From IMG/VR virus record IMGVR_UViG_2541047691_000019, positions 1-7,321 of that record: DNA of 7,321 nucleotides. One strand, given 5' to 3'. Source of the stretch: a virus. Taxonomy: Duplodnaviria; Heunggongvirae; Uroviricota; Caudoviricetes. Shown here piece by piece: positions 2,414 through 7,321 of the stretch. A program made the position numbers and the translations under genes. The notes below the pieces were generated by a model that worked only from the letters and a program-made list of their open reading frames with translations, was not told the origin of the DNA and did not search any database. Position 1 is the stretch's first letter. Each line of letters starts with the position of its first letter.

Positions 2414-3013
2414 ATGCGTAAAGTTTGTGCAGTCATTTTGTCCGCAGCCATCTGTCTGTCCGTATCCGGTGCGCCTGCATGGGCGTCTGAACATCAGTCC
2501 ACACTGAGCGCGGGGTATCTTCATGCCCGTACGAACGCTCCCGGCAGCGATAATCTGAACGGGATTAACGTGAAATACCGTTATGAGTTTACGGACGCGC
2601 TGGGGCTGATTACGTCCTTCAGTTATGCCAATGCTGAAGATGAGAAAAAAACGCACTACAGCGATACCCGCTGGCATGAGGATTCTGTGCGTAACCGCTG
2701 GTTCAGCGTGATGGCGGGGCCATCTGTGCGCGTGAATGAATGGTTCAGCGTGTATGTGATCGCTGGTGTGACTTACAGCCGTGTGTCGACTTTTTCCGGG
2801 GATTATCTCCGTGTAACTGACAGCAAGGGGAAAACGCACGATGTGCTGACCGGAAGTGATGACGATCGCCACAGCAACACGTCTCTGGCGTGGGGAGCTG
2901 GCGTGCAGTTTAACCCGACCGAATCCGTGGCCATTGACCTTGCTTATGAAGGTTCCGGCAGTGGTGACTGGCGCACTGACGGTTTCATCGTGGGTGTCGG
3001 TTATAAATTCTGA
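2414..3013 (+). CDS. lom: Lom outer-membrane protein (Ail/Lom/PagC family 8-strand beta-barrel)
   Basis: 199 aa; N-terminal signal peptide MRKVCAVILSAAICLSVSGAPAWA; near-identical over most of its length to lambda Lom as I recall it (…SEHQSTLSAGYLHARTNAPGSDNLNGINVKYRYEF…DWRTDGFIVGVGYKF). RBS GAGAGG at 2403-2408, ATG at 2414. Position J-lom-stf matches lambda. Confidence 0.92.
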   Translation: MRKVCAVILSAAICLSVSGAPAWASEHQSTLSAGYLHARTNAPGSDNLNGINVKYRYEFTDALGLITSFSYANAEDEKKTHYSDTRWHEDSVRNRWFSVMAGPSVRVNEWFSVYVIAGVTYSRVSTFSGDYLRVTDSKGKTHDVLTGSDDDRHSNTSLAWGAGVQFNPTESVAIDLAYEGSGSGDWRTDGFIVGVGYKF

Positions 3014-3066: not shown

Positions 3067-3077
3067 GTGGAGTGGAT

Positions 3078-5144
3078 ATGGCAGCAGTAAAAATCTCAGG
3101 TGTGCTGAAAGATGGTGCGGGAAAACCAATACAGAACTGCACTATTCAGTTGAAGGCAAAGCGTAACAGCACCACGGTACTGGTGAACACGGTGGCCTCT
3201 GAAAATCCGGATGAAGCCGGGCGTTACAGCATGGATGTTGAGTATGGCCAGTACAGCGTCATCCTGCTGGTTGAAGGTTTTCCGCCTTCACATGCCGGGA
3301 CCATTACCGTCTATGAAGGTTCCAGACCAGGTACGCTGAATGATTTTCTCGGTGCCATGACGGAGGATGATGTTCGTCCGGAGGCACTGCGCCGTTTTGA
3401 GCTGATGGTGAATGAAGTGGCACGTCATGCCGGAGCGTCATCACAGAGTGCAGCGGCGGCAAAGAAATCCGAAACGGCAGCAGCCTCATCGAAGAATGCG
3501 GCGAAAACCTCAGAAACGAATGCAGCTAACAGCGCACAGGCGGCAGCGGCCTCGCAGACTGCATCGGCAAACTCCGCGACAGCAGCCAAAAAATCAGAAA
3601 CCAACGCGAAAAATAGCGAGACAGCCACAAAGGCCAGCGAAAAAAACGCAAAATCCAGCCAGACGGCAGCGAAAACCAGTGAGACGAATGCCAAAGACAG
3701 TGAAGCCAACGCAAAGGTGAGCGAAACAGCGGCGGCGAACTCGGCGAAAGCATCGGCAGCAAGCCAGACGGCAGCAAAAGCAAGTGAAGATGCTGCCAGA
3801 GAATACGCAAACCAGACAGCAGAGCCGTACAGATATGTTTTACAGCCGCTGCCGGATGTGTGGATACCCTTTAATGATTCGCTGGATATGATTACGGGCT
3901 ATTCTCCGGGTTATAAAAAAGTGAAGATTGGTGATAATGTGGTTCAGGTTGCCAGTGATAAACAGGTTAATTTCAGTCGCGCATCAACGGCAACATATAT
4001 CAACAAATCTGGCGAACTGAAAACGGCGGAAATTAATGAGCCACGATTTGAGTGTGATGGCCTGCTTATTGAGGGGCAAAGAACGAACTTCTTCCCGAAC
4101 AGTACAGACCCTTCGAAGTGGAATAAGTCAACTTCACTGGACGTTACAGAAACAGGCACAGATAGTTTCGGGTTTAATTATGGCCGGTTTGTCGTACAGG
4201 ATTCGATTGTTGGTACAAGTAAAGCGCATACCATTATCGGACTGTATTCGAGTACCGGAGGGGTTGATACTTCAGGGGACGAAAAGTATGTAACTATATC
4301 CTGTCGGGTAAAAAGTGAAGTTGATAATATCGCCGTTCGTATTTTATTTGAACATTATGATGGGGAGGTAAGGACATCAATAGGAGCAGCAAGCCTGAAC
4401 CTTACCACCCGCATAATTAGCAAGACAGGTCAGACAAGCCGTGTTACAGCAAGGTCTGTTAAGGATGATGCAACTGGCTGGATATTTTTTGAGGCTACAT
4501 TAAAAGCAGATACAACAGAAAATACGGTTGGCGGTTTTGTCCAGTATTCTCCGGATACAGGGCAGATGGTTGCATCAGGGGATTATCTCGATGTAACCAC
4601 TCCACAGATTGAGGCTGGTACAGGCGCATCATCTTTTATTGTTACGGGGACGGCACCGGTAACGCGGGCAAGCGATATGGTTACAGTTCCGATTAAGAAT
4701 AATCTTTATAATCTTCCTTTTACGGTTCTTTGTGAGGTACATAAGAACTGGTATAAAACGCCAAATGCAGCGCCGCGTGTTTTTGACACATACCGGCATC
4801 AGGCAGATGCGGGGATCGTAATGGGGTTTGGTTCATCAGGTGGGTACGACGGTTTTCCGTATTGTGATATTGGTGGTTCAAACCGACGAATAAATGAAAA
4901 TGCCGGGCTGAAAAAAATGCTTATTGGTATGCGGGTAAAGTCCGAACGGTCCACATGTGTAGTCAGTAACGGTAAGTTAAGCAGCGAAACTAAAACCAAA
5001 TGGGAATATATCCGGAGTACAGCAACCATTCGCATTGGTGGACAAACTACAGCAGGATTACGCCATTTATTTGGGCATGTGAGGAATTTTCGTCTCTGGC
5101 ATAAAGAGCTAACAGATGCGCAGCTTGGGGAGGTTGTGGAGTGA
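3078..5144 (+). CDS. stf: Side tail fibre protein Stf (lambda Stf-like N-terminus, repeat stalk, divergent distal domain)
   Basis: ATG at 3078 is preferred over the in-frame GTG at 3072 because MAAVKISGVLKDGAGKPIQNCTIQLKAKRNS matches the lambda Stf N-terminus and GGAG lies 5 nt upstream. 688 aa; central Ala/Ser/Thr/Lys repeats (KxSETNAK); conserved block AREYANQTAEPYRYVLQPLPDVWIPFNDSLDMITG…; C-terminus …LRHLFGHVRNFRLWHKELTDAQLGEVVE typical of enterobacterial prophage side tail fibres. TGA at 5142-5144. Confidence 0.88.
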   Translation: MAAVKISGVLKDGAGKPIQNCTIQLKAKRNSTTVLVNTVASENPDEAGRYSMDVEYGQYSVILLVEGFPPSHAGTITVYEGSRPGTLNDFLGAMTEDDVRPEALRRFELMVNEVARHAGASSQSAAAAKKSETAAASSKNAAKTSETNAANSAQAAAASQTASANSATAAKKSETNAKNSETATKASEKNAKSSQTAAKTSETNAKDSEANAKVSETAAANSAKASAASQTAAKASEDAAREYANQTAEPYRYVLQPLPDVWIPFNDSLDMITGYSPGYKKVKIGDNVVQVASDKQVNFSRASTATYINKSGELKTAEINEPRFECDGLLIEGQRTNFFPNSTDPSKWNKSTSLDVTETGTDSFGFNYGRFVVQDSIVGTSKAHTIIGLYSSTGGVDTSGDEKYVTISCRVKSEVDNIAVRILFEHYDGEVRTSIGAASLNLTTRIISKTGQTSRVTARSVKDDATGWIFFEATLKADTTENTVGGFVQYSPDTGQMVASGDYLDVTTPQIEAGTGASSFIVTGTAPVTRASDMVTVPIKNNLYNLPFTVLCEVHKNWYKTPNAAPRVFDTYRHQADAGIVMGFGSSGGYDGFPYCDIGGSNRRINENAGLKKMLIGMRVKSERSTCVVSNGKLSSETKTKWEYIRSTATIRIGGQTTAGLRHLFGHVRNFRLWHKELTDAQLGEVVE
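3438..3813 (+). repeat. Imperfect in-frame tandem repeats encoding the Stf low-complexity stalk
   Basis: Recurrent DNA units such as AAA(A/T)C(A/C)AG(T/C)GA(A/G)AC(G/C)AA(T/C)GC(G/A)AAA encode repeated (A/T)AK(T/K/N)SETNAK motifs. This tract produces spurious highly basic or hydrophobic ORFs in other frames (3412-3720 +, 3425-3709 -, 3526-3810 -). Confidence 0.6.
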
Positions 5145-5419
5145 GAGATTTCACGTTGCGTTTCAGTGATAAAGCAGATTTCAGGGCATTTCTCAGGAAA
5201 CTTAACTGGGAAGAGGACGAAGAGCTGCAGAATGCCGTTCTGGTTGATGAGATTGGTTTTACGTTCAGGGAGACAGATGTTCCTGATGACGGAGAACCAG
5301 AATACACGCGAAACGAAGGGTACTTTGTTAATATCCGTCTTCTTGACGATGGATTTGATGATTCCGTGTTCCGTGAGTGGGTGGTTACACCAGAGCGCCC
5401 GCTCAGGGAGTGGTTTTAA
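5141..5419 (+). CDS. Hypothetical acidic 92-aa protein, translationally coupled to stf (possible cognate fibre chaperone/accessory protein)
   Basis: GTG start at 5141 overlaps the stf stop (GTGA); strong SD GGGGAGG at 5127-5133, 7 nt upstream. Product MRDFTLRFSDKADFRAFLRKLNWEEDEELQ… is acidic with protein-like composition. I do not recognise it as lambda Tfa. Confidence 0.5.
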   Translation: MRDFTLRFSDKADFRAFLRKLNWEEDEELQNAVLVDEIGFTFRETDVPDDGEPEYTRNEGYFVNIRLLDDGFDDSVFREWVVTPERPLREWF

Positions 5420-5428
5420 GGATAGCAG

Positions 5429-5650
5429 ATGGATATCACGTCGATACTTCATGCGCTTTGTGCCGTAGCGGTGCAGGTACTGGCTGGTCTTTTTACCGGA
5501 AACTGGGCTTACGGGGCGATAGCCGGTTGTACGTTCTTCATTGCGCGTGAACACACCCAGGCAGAATATCGCTGGATTGAAATGTTCGGGCATGGCAAGC
5601 GTATGAATATGCCGTGGTGGGGCGTGCCTGCGAATCTGGCTGTTGGTTAA
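5429..5650 (+). CDS. Hypothetical 73-aa small hydrophobic (membrane?) protein
   Basis: ATG at 5429 with SD AAGGA at 5417-5421, 7 nt upstream. Two hydrophobic segments (ITSILHALCAVAVQVLAGLF; WAYGAIAGCTFFIA) then a Trp-rich polar tail. TAA at 5648-5650. No family recognised. Confidence 0.4.
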   Translation: MDITSILHALCAVAVQVLAGLFTGNWAYGAIAGCTFFIAREHTQAEYRWIEMFGHGKRMNMPWWGVPANLAVG

Positions 5651-5669
5651 TCGTGGGTGAAAAAGGTGA

Positions 5670-5798
5670 GCAGTATATGCAACGAAGGAGGAAACATCAT
5701 TGCTGGCGGCATGGAAGGCATGCAGGGTGTTGCTGAACCGTGTTGATACATCAACTGCACCTGATATTGAGTGGCCGGAAGAACCAGACACAATGTAA
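5670..5798 (+). pseudogene. tfa: Tail fibre assembly protein Tfa, C-terminal remnant (about 42 codons; N-terminal ~150 codons absent)
   Basis: Frame 0 after the TGA at 5667-5669 encodes [42 protein letters not shown], matching the conserved C-terminus of lambda Tfa as I recall it (…[32 protein letters not shown]…). No ATG start and no N-terminal domain. Confidence 0.65.
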
Positions 5799-5801
5799 GC
5801 G

Positions 5802-5847
5802 AAAAAGAAAAACCGCAGACACGACGTATGCAGGACGTGCTGCGGTT
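5802..5847 (-). terminator. Rho-independent terminator for the leftward int-dinI transcript
   Basis: On the + strand, AACCGCAG (5811-5818) pairs with CTGCGGTT (5840-5847), with an extended imperfect stem (ACACG/ACGTG). The A-run AAAAAGAAAAA at 5802-5812 reads as U-rich 3' of the hairpin on the - strand. About 65 nt downstream of the dinI-like stop. Confidence 0.55.
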
Positions 5848-5913
5848 GGCTGGTGAACTTTCGATAGTGCGGGTATTGAATGATTTCCAGCCGTTACCGA
5901 TTTTACGTGTTTA

Positions 5914-6162
5914 TTAGTGAACAAACCACTCGTCAGCAGACTCCCAGGTATCTTTCAGAGTCTCCTGAACAAATGTTTTTGCAGAATCCTTATCTGCTGT
6001 GCGTGTAACAGAAAGCCCATCATTGCTGGTGGCTTTTACGATCACTTCTACATCGTCATAACGCTTACTGATGCGCCGAGTTAATTCTTCCTTTAACGCA
6101 TCCACAGCACCGTTTGGCATTTTAGTCATTTTCTCTTTGGCTATGCAGATTTCAATACGCAT
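5914..6162 (-). CDS. dinI: DinI family protein (DNA-damage-inducible protein I homologue; modulator of RecA coprotease activity)
   Basis: 82 aa, [35 protein letters not shown]…[15 protein letters not shown], matching E. coli DinI in length and in the MRIE…GA(I/V)DAL…(E)TWESAD(D/E)WFV motifs. RBS GAGGGA upstream; LexA-box promoter immediately upstream. Confidence 0.88.
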
Positions 6163-6175
6163 AAAAATCCCTCTA

Positions 6176-6195
6176 TACTGTGTTTGTATACAGTG
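6176..6195 (-). promoter_or_regulatory. LexA operator (SOS box) 1, proximal to the dinI-like start
   Basis: TACTGTGTTTGTATACAGTG: perfect CTGT-N8-ACAG (6178-6193) with an AT-rich spacer, against consensus TACTGTATATATATACAGTA. Lies between the putative -10 and the RBS. Confidence 0.75.
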
Positions 6196-6197
6196 TT

Positions 6198-6227
6198 ATT
6201 TTTATCTGTATAAATAAACAGTGTCAA
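6198..6227 (-). promoter_or_regulatory. Sigma-70 promoter for the dinI-like gene
   Basis: On the - strand: TTGACA (complement of 6222-6227, a perfect -35 that overlaps the int stop codon at 6224-6226), a 17-18 bp spacer, then TAAAAAT (complement of 6198-6204) as the -10. Start codon is about 35 nt downstream. Confidence 0.6.
6204..6223 (-). promoter_or_regulatory. LexA operator (SOS box) 2, within the promoter spacer
   Basis: ATCTGTATAAATAAACAGTG: perfect CTGT-N8-ACAG at 6206-6221. Sits between the -35 and -10 elements of the dinI-like promoter. Confidence 0.7.
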
Positions 6228-7321
6228 GAGGTCTTGTTTCTGCTCTTTTGGAGTTCTTCAAAACGATTATGTAAAGATTTCGGATACAGTTCGGTATATA
6301 CCTGCCATAGCACGTTTAATGAACGATGCCCTGTAACTTGAGCGACTTCCTCAATACTAAAACCAGCCTCAAATAAGCGACTTGCCCCTTCTCTACGCAA
6401 ATCATGGTATCGCAGATCTTTAATACCTAATTTGCTTCTTACCCTCTGAAATCCTGCGGTAACAGAAGTGCTGTTATATGGAAAAATGAATTCTGATTTT
6501 TTGGGTTGGCGCTGGACGATATCCCAGGCTTCCCCAAGCAAGGCAACTTTCATATGGTTACCTTCCTTTTTACGTGGATCTTTCCTATCTCTTACTAGTA
6601 TAGATTTTTGTTCTTGGTCGAGATCTTCCCATCGTAACCGGCATACTTCTCCGATTCGCATACAGGACCACACAGAAAATTTGAGGATATCAACGAACGG
6701 AATTTTTGAGCATTTATGAGTAGATCGTTGTTGAAGGCCTTCAATGAGCATGTCCAGTTCATCAGATGCTGGTCTACGATTACGACGGTTTGATTTACCA
6801 ATCAAACCGAGTTTAAGTAGATATGGACGAGCGCTTTTCGCCGGGTTTGATGTGTAATTGATTCCGTATACAGGTTTTGCCGCATCCAGAACACTGCCAA
6901 GATAACTAACATCGTGGCTGACTGTTGCTGGGCCTGCACCAGCGTTGTTTCTTAGCCTGCAATGTTCAATTACGTCATTTTCTGTCAGTTCAGATAGTTT
7001 GATCGCGGATATGTCACTATCCATAAGCAGTTCCAGCACATATCTTTTAGTACGGCCTGCTTTACCTCCGGCATTTGGGTCATTTAAATATTTGTGTAGT
7101 AAGTCACGGACTGTAAGTCCATCAACAGCATTTGATGATGGAATGCCATATAGATCTAATTCCATCACTTTCTGTGCGCCCCATGTTTTGGCATGAGCAT
7201 GTTTAGGGAATGTTTTGCTTTCCCTGTAAGTGATAACACCTTTTTCTTTGATAATCACATTACAGCGATAGCGTGGTGTGCCATCGGATTTTAGTCGTTT
7301 CTCTATGTTATAGTACGCCAT
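6224..7321 (-). CDS. int: Phage integrase, tyrosine site-specific recombinase
   Basis: 365 aa. C-terminal catalytic-domain motifs: Arg in …CMRIGEVCRLRWEDLD…, HDLRREGASRLF (H-x-x-R) and a Tyr near the C-terminus (…GHRSLNVLWQVYTELY). Start codon is the final 3 bases of the window (complement of 7319-7321), so an upstream extension cannot be excluded. AT-rich relative to J and lom. Confidence 0.88.
   Translation of the reverse strand: MAYYNIEKRLKSDGTPRYRCNVIIKEKGVITYRESKTFPKHAHAKTWGAQKVMELDLYGIPSSNAVDGLTVRDLLHKYLNDPNAGGKAGRTKRYVLELLMDSDISAIKLSELTENDVIEHCRLRNNAGAGPATVSHDVSYLGSVLDAAKPVYGINYTSNPAKSARPYLLKLGLIGKSNRRNRRPASDELDMLIEGLQQRSTHKCSKIPFVDILKFSVWSCMRIGEVCRLRWEDLDQEQKSILVRDRKDPRKKEGNHMKVALLGEAWDIVQRQPKKSEFIFPYNSTSVTAGFQRVRSKLGIKDLRYHDLRREGASRLFEAGFSIEEVAQVTGHRSLNVLWQVYTELYPKSLHNRFEELQKSRNKTS

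What the first reader, a model, noticed from the sequence alone, without database searches (positions are those of the whole stretch)
5429..5650. Small hydrophobic 73-aa ORF in the classic moron position next to the tail-fibre genes
The ORF has a good SD, two hydrophobic helices and a possible lipobox-like IAGC, and it lies between the tail-fibre module and the int/att region. That position is where lambdoid phages carry lysogenic-conversion or superinfection-exclusion genes (lom here; cor in phi80/N15-type phages, as I recall). A small envelope protein here could mediate receptor masking or exclusion. No family assignment is possible by eye.
Basis: inference. Interest (0 to 1): 0.5.

Follow-up and report, generated by a model that had tools for sequence, protein, structure and literature searches.

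The report
Broken copy of unknown phage membrane-protein gene
The 73-codon ORF is real, but it is a frameshifted, truncated copy of a conserved 97-codon gene for a small three-helix membrane protein of unknown function that many phages carry as the last gene after their tail-fibre genes, so this copy is most likely dead.

Summary
The ORF at 5429-5650 exists. It has an AAGGA Shine-Dalgarno 6 nt upstream and two hydrophobic helices. It is not an intact gene.

Relatives such as E. coli PMV-1 and phage ev243 carry a 97-codon gene here. The window allele lacks 62 bp, so codons 66-73 are out of frame. The third helix and part of the invariant motif are lost. RefSeq already marks the identical locus as a pseudogene.

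The parent family (PHROG 1443, function unknown) has no Pfam, NCBIfam, PADLOC or PDB relative. It is under purifying selection (dN/dS 0.03-0.23). AlphaFold gives a confident three-helix model (pLDDT 91.8).

An apparently full-length copy (at least 80% coverage) occurs in 1869 of 5426 complete E. coli genomes. The family sits directly after unrelated tail-fibre or tailspike genes in sipho-, podo- and myoviruses. It is also a chromosomal singleton in Aeromonas, Leclercia and sphingomonads.

It is unrelated to Cor, Lom or HK97 gp15, and the 'lipobox' fails the lipoprotein rule. Receptor masking is unlikely, because near-identical copies follow unrelated receptor-binding proteins.

My best guess is a generic envelope-acting cargo protein, possibly blocking phage DNA entry. 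That is inference only.

The parts
5418..5422 (+). Shine-Dalgarno AAGGA, 6 nt before the ATG. It overlaps the stop codon (5417-5419) of the upstream 92-codon gene, which suggests translational coupling.
   Evidence: Read directly from the sequence.
5429..5650 (+).
   Evidence: ORF list. The exact 73-aa product is seen on 82 public contigs.
5429..5623 (+). Codons 1-65, the conserved in-frame part. It covers helix 1 (residues 4-23), helix 2 (26-53) and the first half of the invariant motif REHTQAEYRWI..FG.GKR.NMPWWG.
   Evidence: PHROG 1443 match over residues 1-65, E = 4.2e-39. PGAP pseudogene coordinates in the identical locus L001 (3330-3524, +2099 offset). AlphaFold helices.
5620..5623 (+). 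Junction of a 62-bp deletion. Its position is ambiguous by 2 nt (GG). In the intact gene the lost segment is flanked by the imperfect direct repeats GCCGTGGTGG and GCCGGTGGTGG.
   Evidence: Alignment A1 with PMV-1 and NMBU_W05E18. Junction mapping script.
5624..5650 (+). Out-of-frame tail VPANLAVG plus TAA, created by the frameshift. It is not part of the ancestral protein.
5625..5660 (+). Relic of the ancestral C-terminus (CLRIWLLVNRG, stop TGA at 5658-5660), now in a different frame from the ATG at 5429.
   Evidence: Three-frame translation after the junction, compared with the intact ...ACLLIWLLVNRG*.
5141..5419 (+). Upstream 92-codon gene (PHROG 1361, function unknown). It overlaps the tail-fibre stop codon by 4 nt and is part of the same operon.
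3072..5144 (+). Side tail-fibre gene (Prophage tail fibre N-terminal domain), the structural gene that the small ORFs follow.
   Evidence: Pfam PF08400, E = 3.2e-67.
5679..5798 (+). C-terminal remnant of a tail-fibre assembly (tfa) gene. It shows that this end of the prophage has been rearranged or has decayed.
   Evidence: PGAP annotation of identical locus L001 at 3580-3699.

Best explanation
Shown: the ORF is the 5' two-thirds of a 97-codon gene. The gene was inactivated by a 62-bp deletion between imperfect GCCGTGGTGG / GCCGGTGGTGG repeats. The frameshift replaces the last 32 residues with 8 unrelated ones. That removes G66, F67, D68, W72, D79 and P83 of the invariant motif and the whole third helix. 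The locus lies in the right arm of a dusA-integrated lambdoid prophage that also carries a tfa remnant. The parent gene encodes a ~97-aa protein predicted to form three helices, and it is under purifying selection. In phages it is the last gene of the tail-fibre or tailspike operon, usually 9-45 nt from the upstream gene or overlapping it by 4 nt. It also occurs as a chromosomal singleton in several proteobacterial lineages. Inferred: the truncated product is most likely non-functional. Inferred with about 0.3 probability: the intact protein sits in the cytoplasmic membrane. Its invariant N-terminal His and its helix-2/loop motif form one conserved site at one membrane face. It acts on a conserved envelope component and not on a phage-specific receptor. 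The most plausible role is a generic block to incoming phage DNA or injection machinery (inner-membrane superinfection exclusion). It would be carried as cargo at the end of the late operon. The confidence below refers to the pseudogene and family identification, not to the functional guess.
For: Deletion and frameshift. PGAP pseudogene call in the identical locus. Family match limited to residues 1-65 of 97. Invariant columns lost in the window allele. Real gene under selection: 563 homologues, 444 clusters at 50% identity, dN/dS 0.03-0.23 among Escherichia alleles. Copies covering at least 80% of the gene occur in 1869 of 5426 complete E. coli genomes. The deletion-junction allele occurs in about 47 genomes. 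Structure: pLDDT 91.8, helices 4-23, 26-53 and 74-96; hydropathy. Position after receptor-binding proteins. Intergenic distances of -8 to +80 nt in 68 of 70 distinct viral contexts. Independence from receptor-binding-protein type. Chromosomal syntenic copies in Aeromonas and Leclercia.
Against: The same deletion allele, 98.8-100% identical, persists in about 47 genomes and in at least three different prophage loci. A residual role for the 65-residue two-helix fragment therefore cannot be excluded. On function: no experiment and no homology to any characterised protein. The near-invariance of the motif from Escherichia to Sphingomonas and Desulfovibrio, and stable chromosomal synteny away from phages, are atypical of exclusion proteins, which usually evolve fast. 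Topology signals conflict: the loop carries about 5.4 K+R, while many members have Arg-rich C-tails. No promoter of its own was detected, so expression in lysogens is unproven.
Confidence: 0.8

Rival explanations
1. The truncated 73-aa product is itself functional: a two-helix membrane hairpin with half the motif, retained by selection as a shortened moron.
For: The ORF stays open with a good SD. The identical allele is found in about 47 complete genomes and three prophage contexts, and the product on 82 contigs.
Against: It lacks six invariant residues and the third helix. PGAP treats it as a pseudogene. In ETEC the carrier prophage is itself degraded and the ORF is not annotated. The carriers are too similar to test for selection. 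Spread is explained equally well by recombination among prophage right arms.
Confidence: 0.08
2. The parent family has a late lytic-cycle role (lysis timing, holin or antiholin-like action, or help with progeny release) and no role in the lysogen.
For: It is translationally coupled to late tail genes, with 4-nt overlaps. No promoter of its own was found. It has three helices, about 97 aa and often a basic C-tail, like class I holins. In a Comamonas prophage it overlaps the first gene of a run of overlapping genes that look by eye like a lysis cassette: two small membrane proteins, an endolysin-like protein and a spanin-like protein. Those genes were not themselves searched. Phage lysozyme lies downstream in 2 loci.
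Against: There is no match to any holin family in Pfam or PHROGs. The conserved part is a 34-residue polar loop and not the transmembrane segments. Chromosomal singletons sit next to housekeeping genes with no endolysin. In E. coli lambdoid prophages it is not next to any lysis gene.
Confidence: 0.2
3. The family is a host envelope-physiology protein that binds a conserved lipid, ion or membrane-protein partner. Phages captured it as a fitness cargo with no anti-phage role.
For: It keeps a syntenic chromosomal position in four Aeromonas species (pirin-X-RIO1) and five Leclercia species. In sphingomonads it lies next to ligA and other housekeeping genes. Invariant His, Gln, Arg, Glu, Tyr, Trp and Asp residues suggest a defined binding or catalytic site.
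Against: About 517 IMG/VR viral contigs carry it. It has a very regular position after receptor-binding genes and up to 6 copies per E. coli genome on prophages. These point to a phage-linked role. There are no co-conserved partner genes.
Confidence: 0.25
4. It is a Cor- or Llp-like lipoprotein that masks an outer-membrane receptor.
For: IAGC at residues 31-34 fits the PROSITE lipobox pattern, and 20 of 36 close relatives fit it too. The position resembles that of cor in phi80.
Against: There is no K/R in the first 7 residues (3 of 36 close relatives have one, 0 of 40 distant ones). The Cys is replaced in 35 of 40 distant relatives. H8 and Q16 inside the putative signal peptide are invariant or nearly so. 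hhalign against phi80 Cor gives 0.3% probability. The model is an all-helical hydrophobic bundle. Near-identical copies follow unrelated receptor-binding proteins.
Confidence: 0.02

Closest known systems
PHROG 1443 (uncharacterised phage protein family; RefSeq 'hypothetical protein' WP_021038225.1 / WP_000355701.1)
   Same: Residues 1-65 match the profile at E = 4.2e-39. The window DNA is 99.6% identical to the PMV-1 locus outside the deletion.
   Different: The window allele lacks 62 bp, so it lacks profile positions 66-97. The family has no known function.
Cor of phi80/N15/T1-type phages (outer-membrane lipoprotein, FhuA-dependent superinfection exclusion)
   Same: A small gene downstream of the tail host-specificity genes and before the att/int end.
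   Different: No homology (hhalign probability 0.3%). Cor has a classic MRK...LTGC lipoprotein signal, and this family does not. In phi80, cor sits after a 111-nt gap and is followed by an annotated terminator. This gene is 9 nt from its upstream neighbour, and no terminator was found.
HK97 gp15 (inner-membrane moron protein that blocks DNA entry)
   Same: A small, hydrophobic, prophage-borne protein embedded in the tail gene region. This is the mechanistic analogy I favour for the intact family.
   Different: No homology (hhalign probability 0.2%). gp15 is 62 aa with one hydrophobic segment. It lies between tail assembly genes and is followed by an annotated putative terminator. It is described as an independent moron unit with its own promoter (from my knowledge of the literature, not tested here). 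The family studied here has three helices and is operon-coupled.
Lom/Ail outer-membrane beta-barrel (lambda lom)
   Same: A prophage cargo gene in the same tail-fibre region. A true lom lies at window 2414-3013 (PF06316, E = 2e-123).
   Different: The target is all-helical and hydrophobic, with no Ail_Lom match.
P2 Z/fun moron position (between tail-fibre assembly gene G and sheath gene FI) - recalled from memory, not tested
   Same: In the P2-like tail cluster of Halomonas phage phiHAP-1, the family member sits between the tail-fibre assembly gene and the sheath gene. That is the slot I recall for Z/fun.
   Different: No sequence comparison with Z/fun was made. The resemblance is positional only.

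Membership tests
PHROG 1443 / 97-aa three-helix membrane protein family | Significant match to the family profile | tested here: met
   E = 4.2e-39, residues 1-65 to profile positions 1-65 of 97.
PHROG 1443 / 97-aa three-helix membrane protein family | Full length (~90-125 aa) including the third helix | tested here: not met
   A 62-bp deletion and frameshift leave 73 aa, of which the last 8 are unrelated. Helix 74-96 of the model is absent.
PHROG 1443 / 97-aa three-helix membrane protein family | Complete invariant motif (R40 E41 Q44 A45 E46 Y47 R48 W49 I50 R58 M61 P62 W64 G65 G66 F67 D68 W72 D79 P83) | tested here: not met
   Present up to G65. G66, F67, D68, W72, D79 and P83 are lost.
Cor-type exclusion lipoprotein | Sequence or profile homology to Cor | tested here: not met
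   hhalign of family alignment A3 against phi80 Cor: probability 0.3%, 9 aligned columns.
Cor-type exclusion lipoprotein | Lipoprotein signal peptide: K/R in the n-region plus a lipobox Cys at residues 15-35 (PROSITE PS51257 rule) | tested here: not met
   The pattern around C34 fits, but there is no K/R in the first 7 residues. The Cys is conserved in only 5 of 40 distant relatives. H8 is invariant (36/36, A3) or nearly so (39/40, A4), and Q16 is invariant in A3 (36/36) and largely kept in A4 (31/40); both lie in the would-be signal peptide.
Cor-type exclusion lipoprotein | Blocks FhuA-dependent phages when expressed | not testable with these tools
   Needs plaque assays.
HK97 gp15-type inner-membrane exclusion moron | Sequence or profile homology | tested here: not met
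   hhalign probability 0.2%.
Moron (independent promoter-ORF-terminator unit with deviant composition) | Own promoter and terminator flanking the ORF | tested here: not met
   No sigma-70-like promoter or intrinsic terminator on the + strand in 4900-6300. The gap to the upstream gene is 9 nt. The pattern scan is a weak test.
Moron (independent promoter-ORF-terminator unit with deviant composition) | G+C content unlike the flanking phage genes | tested here: inconclusive
   0.50-0.52 over the ORF against 0.45-0.47 upstream and 0.37-0.43 downstream. There is no sharp break.
Class I holin | Match to a holin family and adjacency to an endolysin | tested here: not met
   No holin family hit in Pfam or PHROGs. 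No lysis gene in the window. Adjacency to a likely lysis cassette was seen only in Comamonas-type prophages.
Known anti-phage defence proteins (PADLOC-DB 2.0) | Match to any defence-system profile | tested here: not met
   0 families at E <= 10 for the intact protein and for the 92-aa neighbour.

The most novel reading that the evidence does not exclude
The intact 97-aa family (PHROG 1443) could be a new, widespread class of phage-borne inner-membrane protein. It would act on a conserved envelope step independently of the phage's receptor-binding protein, for example as a generic block to phage genome entry. That would explain why sipho-, podo- and myoviruses all carry it directly after their tail-fibre or tailspike genes, and why some bacteria have fixed it in the chromosome. 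The window itself would hold only a decayed allele.
Probability: 0.3. Interest if true: 0.6.

Novelty: new member of a known kind. Interest (0 to 1): 0.3.

Why it matters
For this window the result is a correction. The candidate 'moron' is a dead allele that RefSeq already flags, so it should not be prioritised for expression or plaque assays as it stands.

The by-product is more useful. The parent gene belongs to a compact family that Pfam does not cover. A copy covering at least 80% of the gene is present in about a third of complete E. coli genomes, and about 500 IMG/VR viral contigs carry a relative. The family has a near-invariant 34-residue motif across Alpha-, Beta-, Gamma-proteobacteria and Desulfovibrio. 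It also has a very regular position after unrelated receptor-binding genes.

That combination makes the intact alleles a cheap and well-defined target for a functional test of a common prophage cargo gene. Suitable alleles are ev243 gp25, JEP4_21 and PMV-1 ECOPMV1_RS01830.

Tried and rejected
- Pfam, NCBIfam and PADLOC scans of the truncated and intact proteins found nothing significant. The only weak hits were PhoR N-terminal and DoxA at E > 0.1.
- A Pfam scan of 40 distant relatives found nothing.
- A PDB sequence profile search gave 0 hits at E <= 10.
- Foldseek against viral structures returned only a 42-aa fragment of the same family. The AFDB50 library was unavailable.
- The Tai/Ati tail-assembly-interference system was read about and rejected. 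It lies before the packaging module in phi80 and is not described as a membrane protein.
- I tested whether the tail-fibre C-terminus co-varies with the small gene. The window fibre shows no similarity to the JEP4 tailspike, the phiHAP-1 fibre or the Aeromonas phage protein. The idea of a cassette specific to one receptor-binding protein was therefore dropped.
- The 90%-identity cluster that groups the intact protein with a 234-aa S74 tail-fibre protein is a clustering artefact, since the sequences are unrelated.
- Literature searches for the accession numbers, the SEED id and the PHROG id returned nothing.
- An Rfam scan of the window found no RNA family.
- A related-loci run with the most divergent alignment failed for lack of a conserved block.
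- Topology from the positive-inside rule was inconclusive.

Full report
**Setting**

The window is the right arm of a lambdoid E. coli prophage.
- The C-terminal part of the host-specificity protein J is at 31-2346.
- A lom gene follows at 2414-3013 (PF06316, E = 2e-123).
- A side tail-fibre gene with the 'Prophage tail fibre N-terminal' domain is at 3072-5144.
- A 92-codon gene is at 5141-5419.
- The target ORF is at 5429-5650.
- A dinI-like gene (5914-6162) and a tyrosine integrase (6224-7321) lie on the minus strand.
- In the near-identical locus (99.9% over 1151 bp) of strain ST95-32, the integrase abuts dusA, so this is a dusA-integrated prophage.

**The observation**

The ORF is there as described. 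It runs from the ATG at 5429 through 73 codons to a TAA ending at 5650. AAGGA at 5418-5422 lies 6 nt upstream and overlaps the stop codon of the 92-codon gene. Two hydrophobic stretches are present, and IAGC is at residues 31-34.

It is not a chance ORF. Residues 1-65 match PHROG 1443 at E = 4.2e-39. However, the match covers only positions 1-65 of a 97-position profile.

**What it really is**

PGAP annotates the identical DNA in ST95-32 as a pseudogene 'missing C-terminus'. Close relatives carry an intact 294-nt gene at the same place: strains PMV-1 and NMBU_W05E18, and phage ev243.

The DNA alignment shows that the window lacks 62 bp.
- The junction lies at window 5620-5623, with a 2-nt ambiguity.
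- In the intact gene the lost segment is flanked by GCCGTGGTGG and GCCGGTGGTGG.
- Because 62 is not a multiple of 3, codons 66-73 (VPANLAVG) are read out of frame.
- The old C-terminus CLRIWLLVNRG* is still visible in another frame at 5625-5660.
- The intact protein is MDITSILHALCAVAVQVLAGLFTGNWAYGAIAGCTFFIAREHTQAEYRWIEMFGHGKRMNMPWWGGFDPRVWDMASLMDFAVPVVACLLIWLLVNRG.

The deletion removes six invariant positions (G66, F67, D68, W72, D79, P83) and the third helix.

A junction-spanning query finds the deletion allele in about 47 of 5426 complete E. coli genomes. That is 51 full-length matches minus 4 that are two-piece matches to intact genes. A copy covering at least 80% of the gene is present in 1869 genomes.

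The deleted allele occurs in at least three prophage contexts:
- at dusA;
- in a degraded prophage next to potB in ETEC O169:H41;
- in an ompT-carrying prophage in strain MS20657.

It has therefore spread by recombination or arisen more than once. The carriers are too similar to test for selection on the short form.

**The parent family**

The family is real and constrained.
- There are 563 homologues at E <= 1e-3 in the 5.8-billion-protein set.
- There are 444 clusters at 50% identity in the 1.84-billion representative set. Nearly all are 60-150 aa, and most are 90-125 aa.
- Pairwise dN/dS among five Escherichia alleles is 0.03-0.23.
- Every source names it 'hypothetical protein'.

There is no significant match in Pfam, NCBIfam, PADLOC or PDB sequences. 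That holds for the protein, for 40 distant relatives and for a profile.

The striking feature is a near-invariant polar block, REHTQAEYRWI..FG.GKR.NMPWWGGFD.R.W, together with H8, Q16, D79 and P83. It is kept from Escherichia to Aeromonas, Comamonas, Halomonas, sphingomonads and Desulfovibrio.

Topology is unresolved.
- Many members have Arg-rich tails directly after helix 3. This argues for a cytoplasmic C-terminus and a periplasmic loop.
- The loop itself carries about 5.4 Lys+Arg, which the positive-inside rule would place in the cytoplasm.

**Genomic position across phages**

The gene is the last gene of the receptor-binding module in three tail morphotypes.
- In lambdoid siphoviruses it follows the tail fibre plus a ~90-aa gene, or an S74-type fibre.
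- In the P22-like podovirus JEP4 it overlaps the tailspike gene by 4 nt and precedes int.
- In the P2-like tail cluster of Halomonas phage phiHAP-1 it overlaps the tail-fibre assembly gene by 4 nt and precedes the sheath gene.
- In a Comamonas prophage it follows J and a 72-aa gene. It overlaps the next gene in a run of overlapping genes that, read by eye, look like a lysis cassette.

IMG/VR holds about 517 viral contigs with a relative. Among 70 distinct contexts, the same-strand upstream gene ends between -8 and +80 nt from the start in 68. In 51 of 156 loci the predicted viral region ends within 300 nt after the gene. Of 10 diverse upstream genes scanned, 7 are tail fibres or tailspikes from different PHROG families, 2 are portal proteins and 1 is unknown.

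The adjacent receptor-binding proteins are unrelated to each other. The E. coli copies of the small gene nevertheless remain 75-100% identical. The gene is therefore not matched to a particular receptor.

**Genomic position outside phages**

The family is also chromosomal.
- Four Aeromonas species share pirin-X-RIO1 kinase synteny.
- Five Leclercia species share X followed by a MetE-like gene and an ABC transporter.
- Sphingomonad copies lie next to ligA and other housekeeping genes.

**Comparison with known systems**

- Cor of phi80 occupies a similar position. It is an unrelated true lipoprotein: hhalign probability is 0.3%, and its N-terminus is MRKLIICMAGAVMLTGC.
- In the present family the PROSITE lipoprotein rule fails. 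There is no K/R in the first seven residues. The Cys is replaced in 35 of 40 distant relatives. H8 is invariant or nearly so (36/36 close relatives, 39/40 distant), and Q16 is invariant among close relatives (36/36) and largely kept among distant ones (31/40); both lie inside the would-be signal peptide, which signal peptides do not show.
- HK97 gp15 is also unrelated: probability 0.2%, 62 aa and one hydrophobic segment.
- Lom is a beta-barrel and is present separately in the window.
- No holin family matches.
- The classic moron architecture was not found. No promoter or terminator was detected on the + strand, the intergenic gap is 9 nt, and there is no sharp G+C break. The pattern scan is a weak test.

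**Mechanism, with shown and inferred steps separated**

Shown: the window allele is a frameshift truncation of a conserved gene. The parent protein is a small hydrophobic three-helix protein with a conserved polar site. It is co-located, and probably co-translated, with late tail genes whatever the receptor-binding protein. Some bacteria keep it in the chromosome.

Inferred: the truncated product is non-functional (probability about 0.85-0.9).

Inferred with low confidence (about 0.3): the intact protein is an inner-membrane cargo protein that acts on a conserved envelope step, most plausibly entry of foreign phage DNA.

Rival functions, each unrefuted:
- a late lytic role (0.2);
- a purely physiological envelope role (0.25).

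**Verdict**

The position and the membrane character are right. The integrity of the gene, the lipobox and receptor masking are wrong.

The feature in the window is an already-flagged pseudogene of an uncharacterised family and is of low interest in itself. The intact family is a reasonable, cheap target for functional work.

Noticed in passing
window 6178-6193 and 6206-6221: Two perfect LexA-box consensus sites (CTGT-N8-ACAG) lie in the 61-nt gap between the dinI-like gene and int. Counting sites with up to one mismatch, 0 of 200 shuffles reach the window's total of 8. The dinI-like gene is probably SOS-regulated, as annotated for dinL in phi80.
   Followed up: partly
window ~5811-5848, minus strand: A GC-rich hairpin followed by UUUUUCUUUUU (dG -20 kcal/mol, z = -2.8) is a likely intrinsic terminator of the dinI-like gene. 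The pattern scan missed it because the loop is longer than 8 nt.
   Followed up: partly
window 5679-5798: This is a 39-codon C-terminal remnant of a tail-fibre assembly (tfa) gene. In relatives (L003, L010, L081, L082) a class I SAM-dependent methyltransferase sits on the opposite strand downstream of it, followed by a second tfa gene or remnant. This prophage end is therefore a recombination and cargo hot spot.
   Followed up: partly
window 5141-5419: A 92-aa acidic protein (PHROG 1361, function unknown, no Pfam hit) overlaps the tail-fibre stop codon by 4 nt and is seen on 975 contigs. A homologue-sized gene also follows the phage_tail_N fibre in other prophages (89 aa, L083). It is absent next to the small membrane gene in JEP4 and phiHAP-1. 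It may be a fibre-specific assembly factor.
   Followed up: partly
L081 (E. coli O169:H41 F6326-C1), L082 (MS20657), L001 (ST95-32): The same 62-bp deletion allele sits in three different prophage loci: potB-adjacent and degraded, ompT-carrying, and dusA. About 47 complete genomes carry it, including several ETEC lineages where it is not annotated at all.
   Followed up: partly
window 5623-5640: Three substitutions cluster within 10 nt just 3' of the deletion junction, relative to the otherwise 99.6%-identical PMV-1 allele (GGCGTGcCTGCgaATC against GGCGTGtCTGCtgATC). This could be post-deletion drift or a different parental allele.
   Followed up: no
protein cluster of the intact 97-aa protein: The 90%-identity cluster is headed by an unrelated 234-aa S74-type 'tail fiber domain-containing protein / chaperone of endosialidase'. 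The sequences share nothing. This is probably a clustering artefact caused by read-through fusions of the two adjacent genes.
   Followed up: yes
L010 (phage ev243) 6701-9325; L082 5486-8080: Related prophages carry an alpha/beta hydrolase gene and an omptin (OmpT-like protease) gene between the tail-fibre end and int. This is further cargo in the same slot.
   Followed up: no
window 3400-3830 (tail-fibre residues ~110-250): The tail fibre has a long, low-complexity Ala/Ser/Thr/Lys/Glu-rich stretch with recurring K-[ST]-SETNAK-like units. Tandem Repeats Finder reports no DNA repeat there, so the periodicity exists only at the protein level.
   Followed up: no
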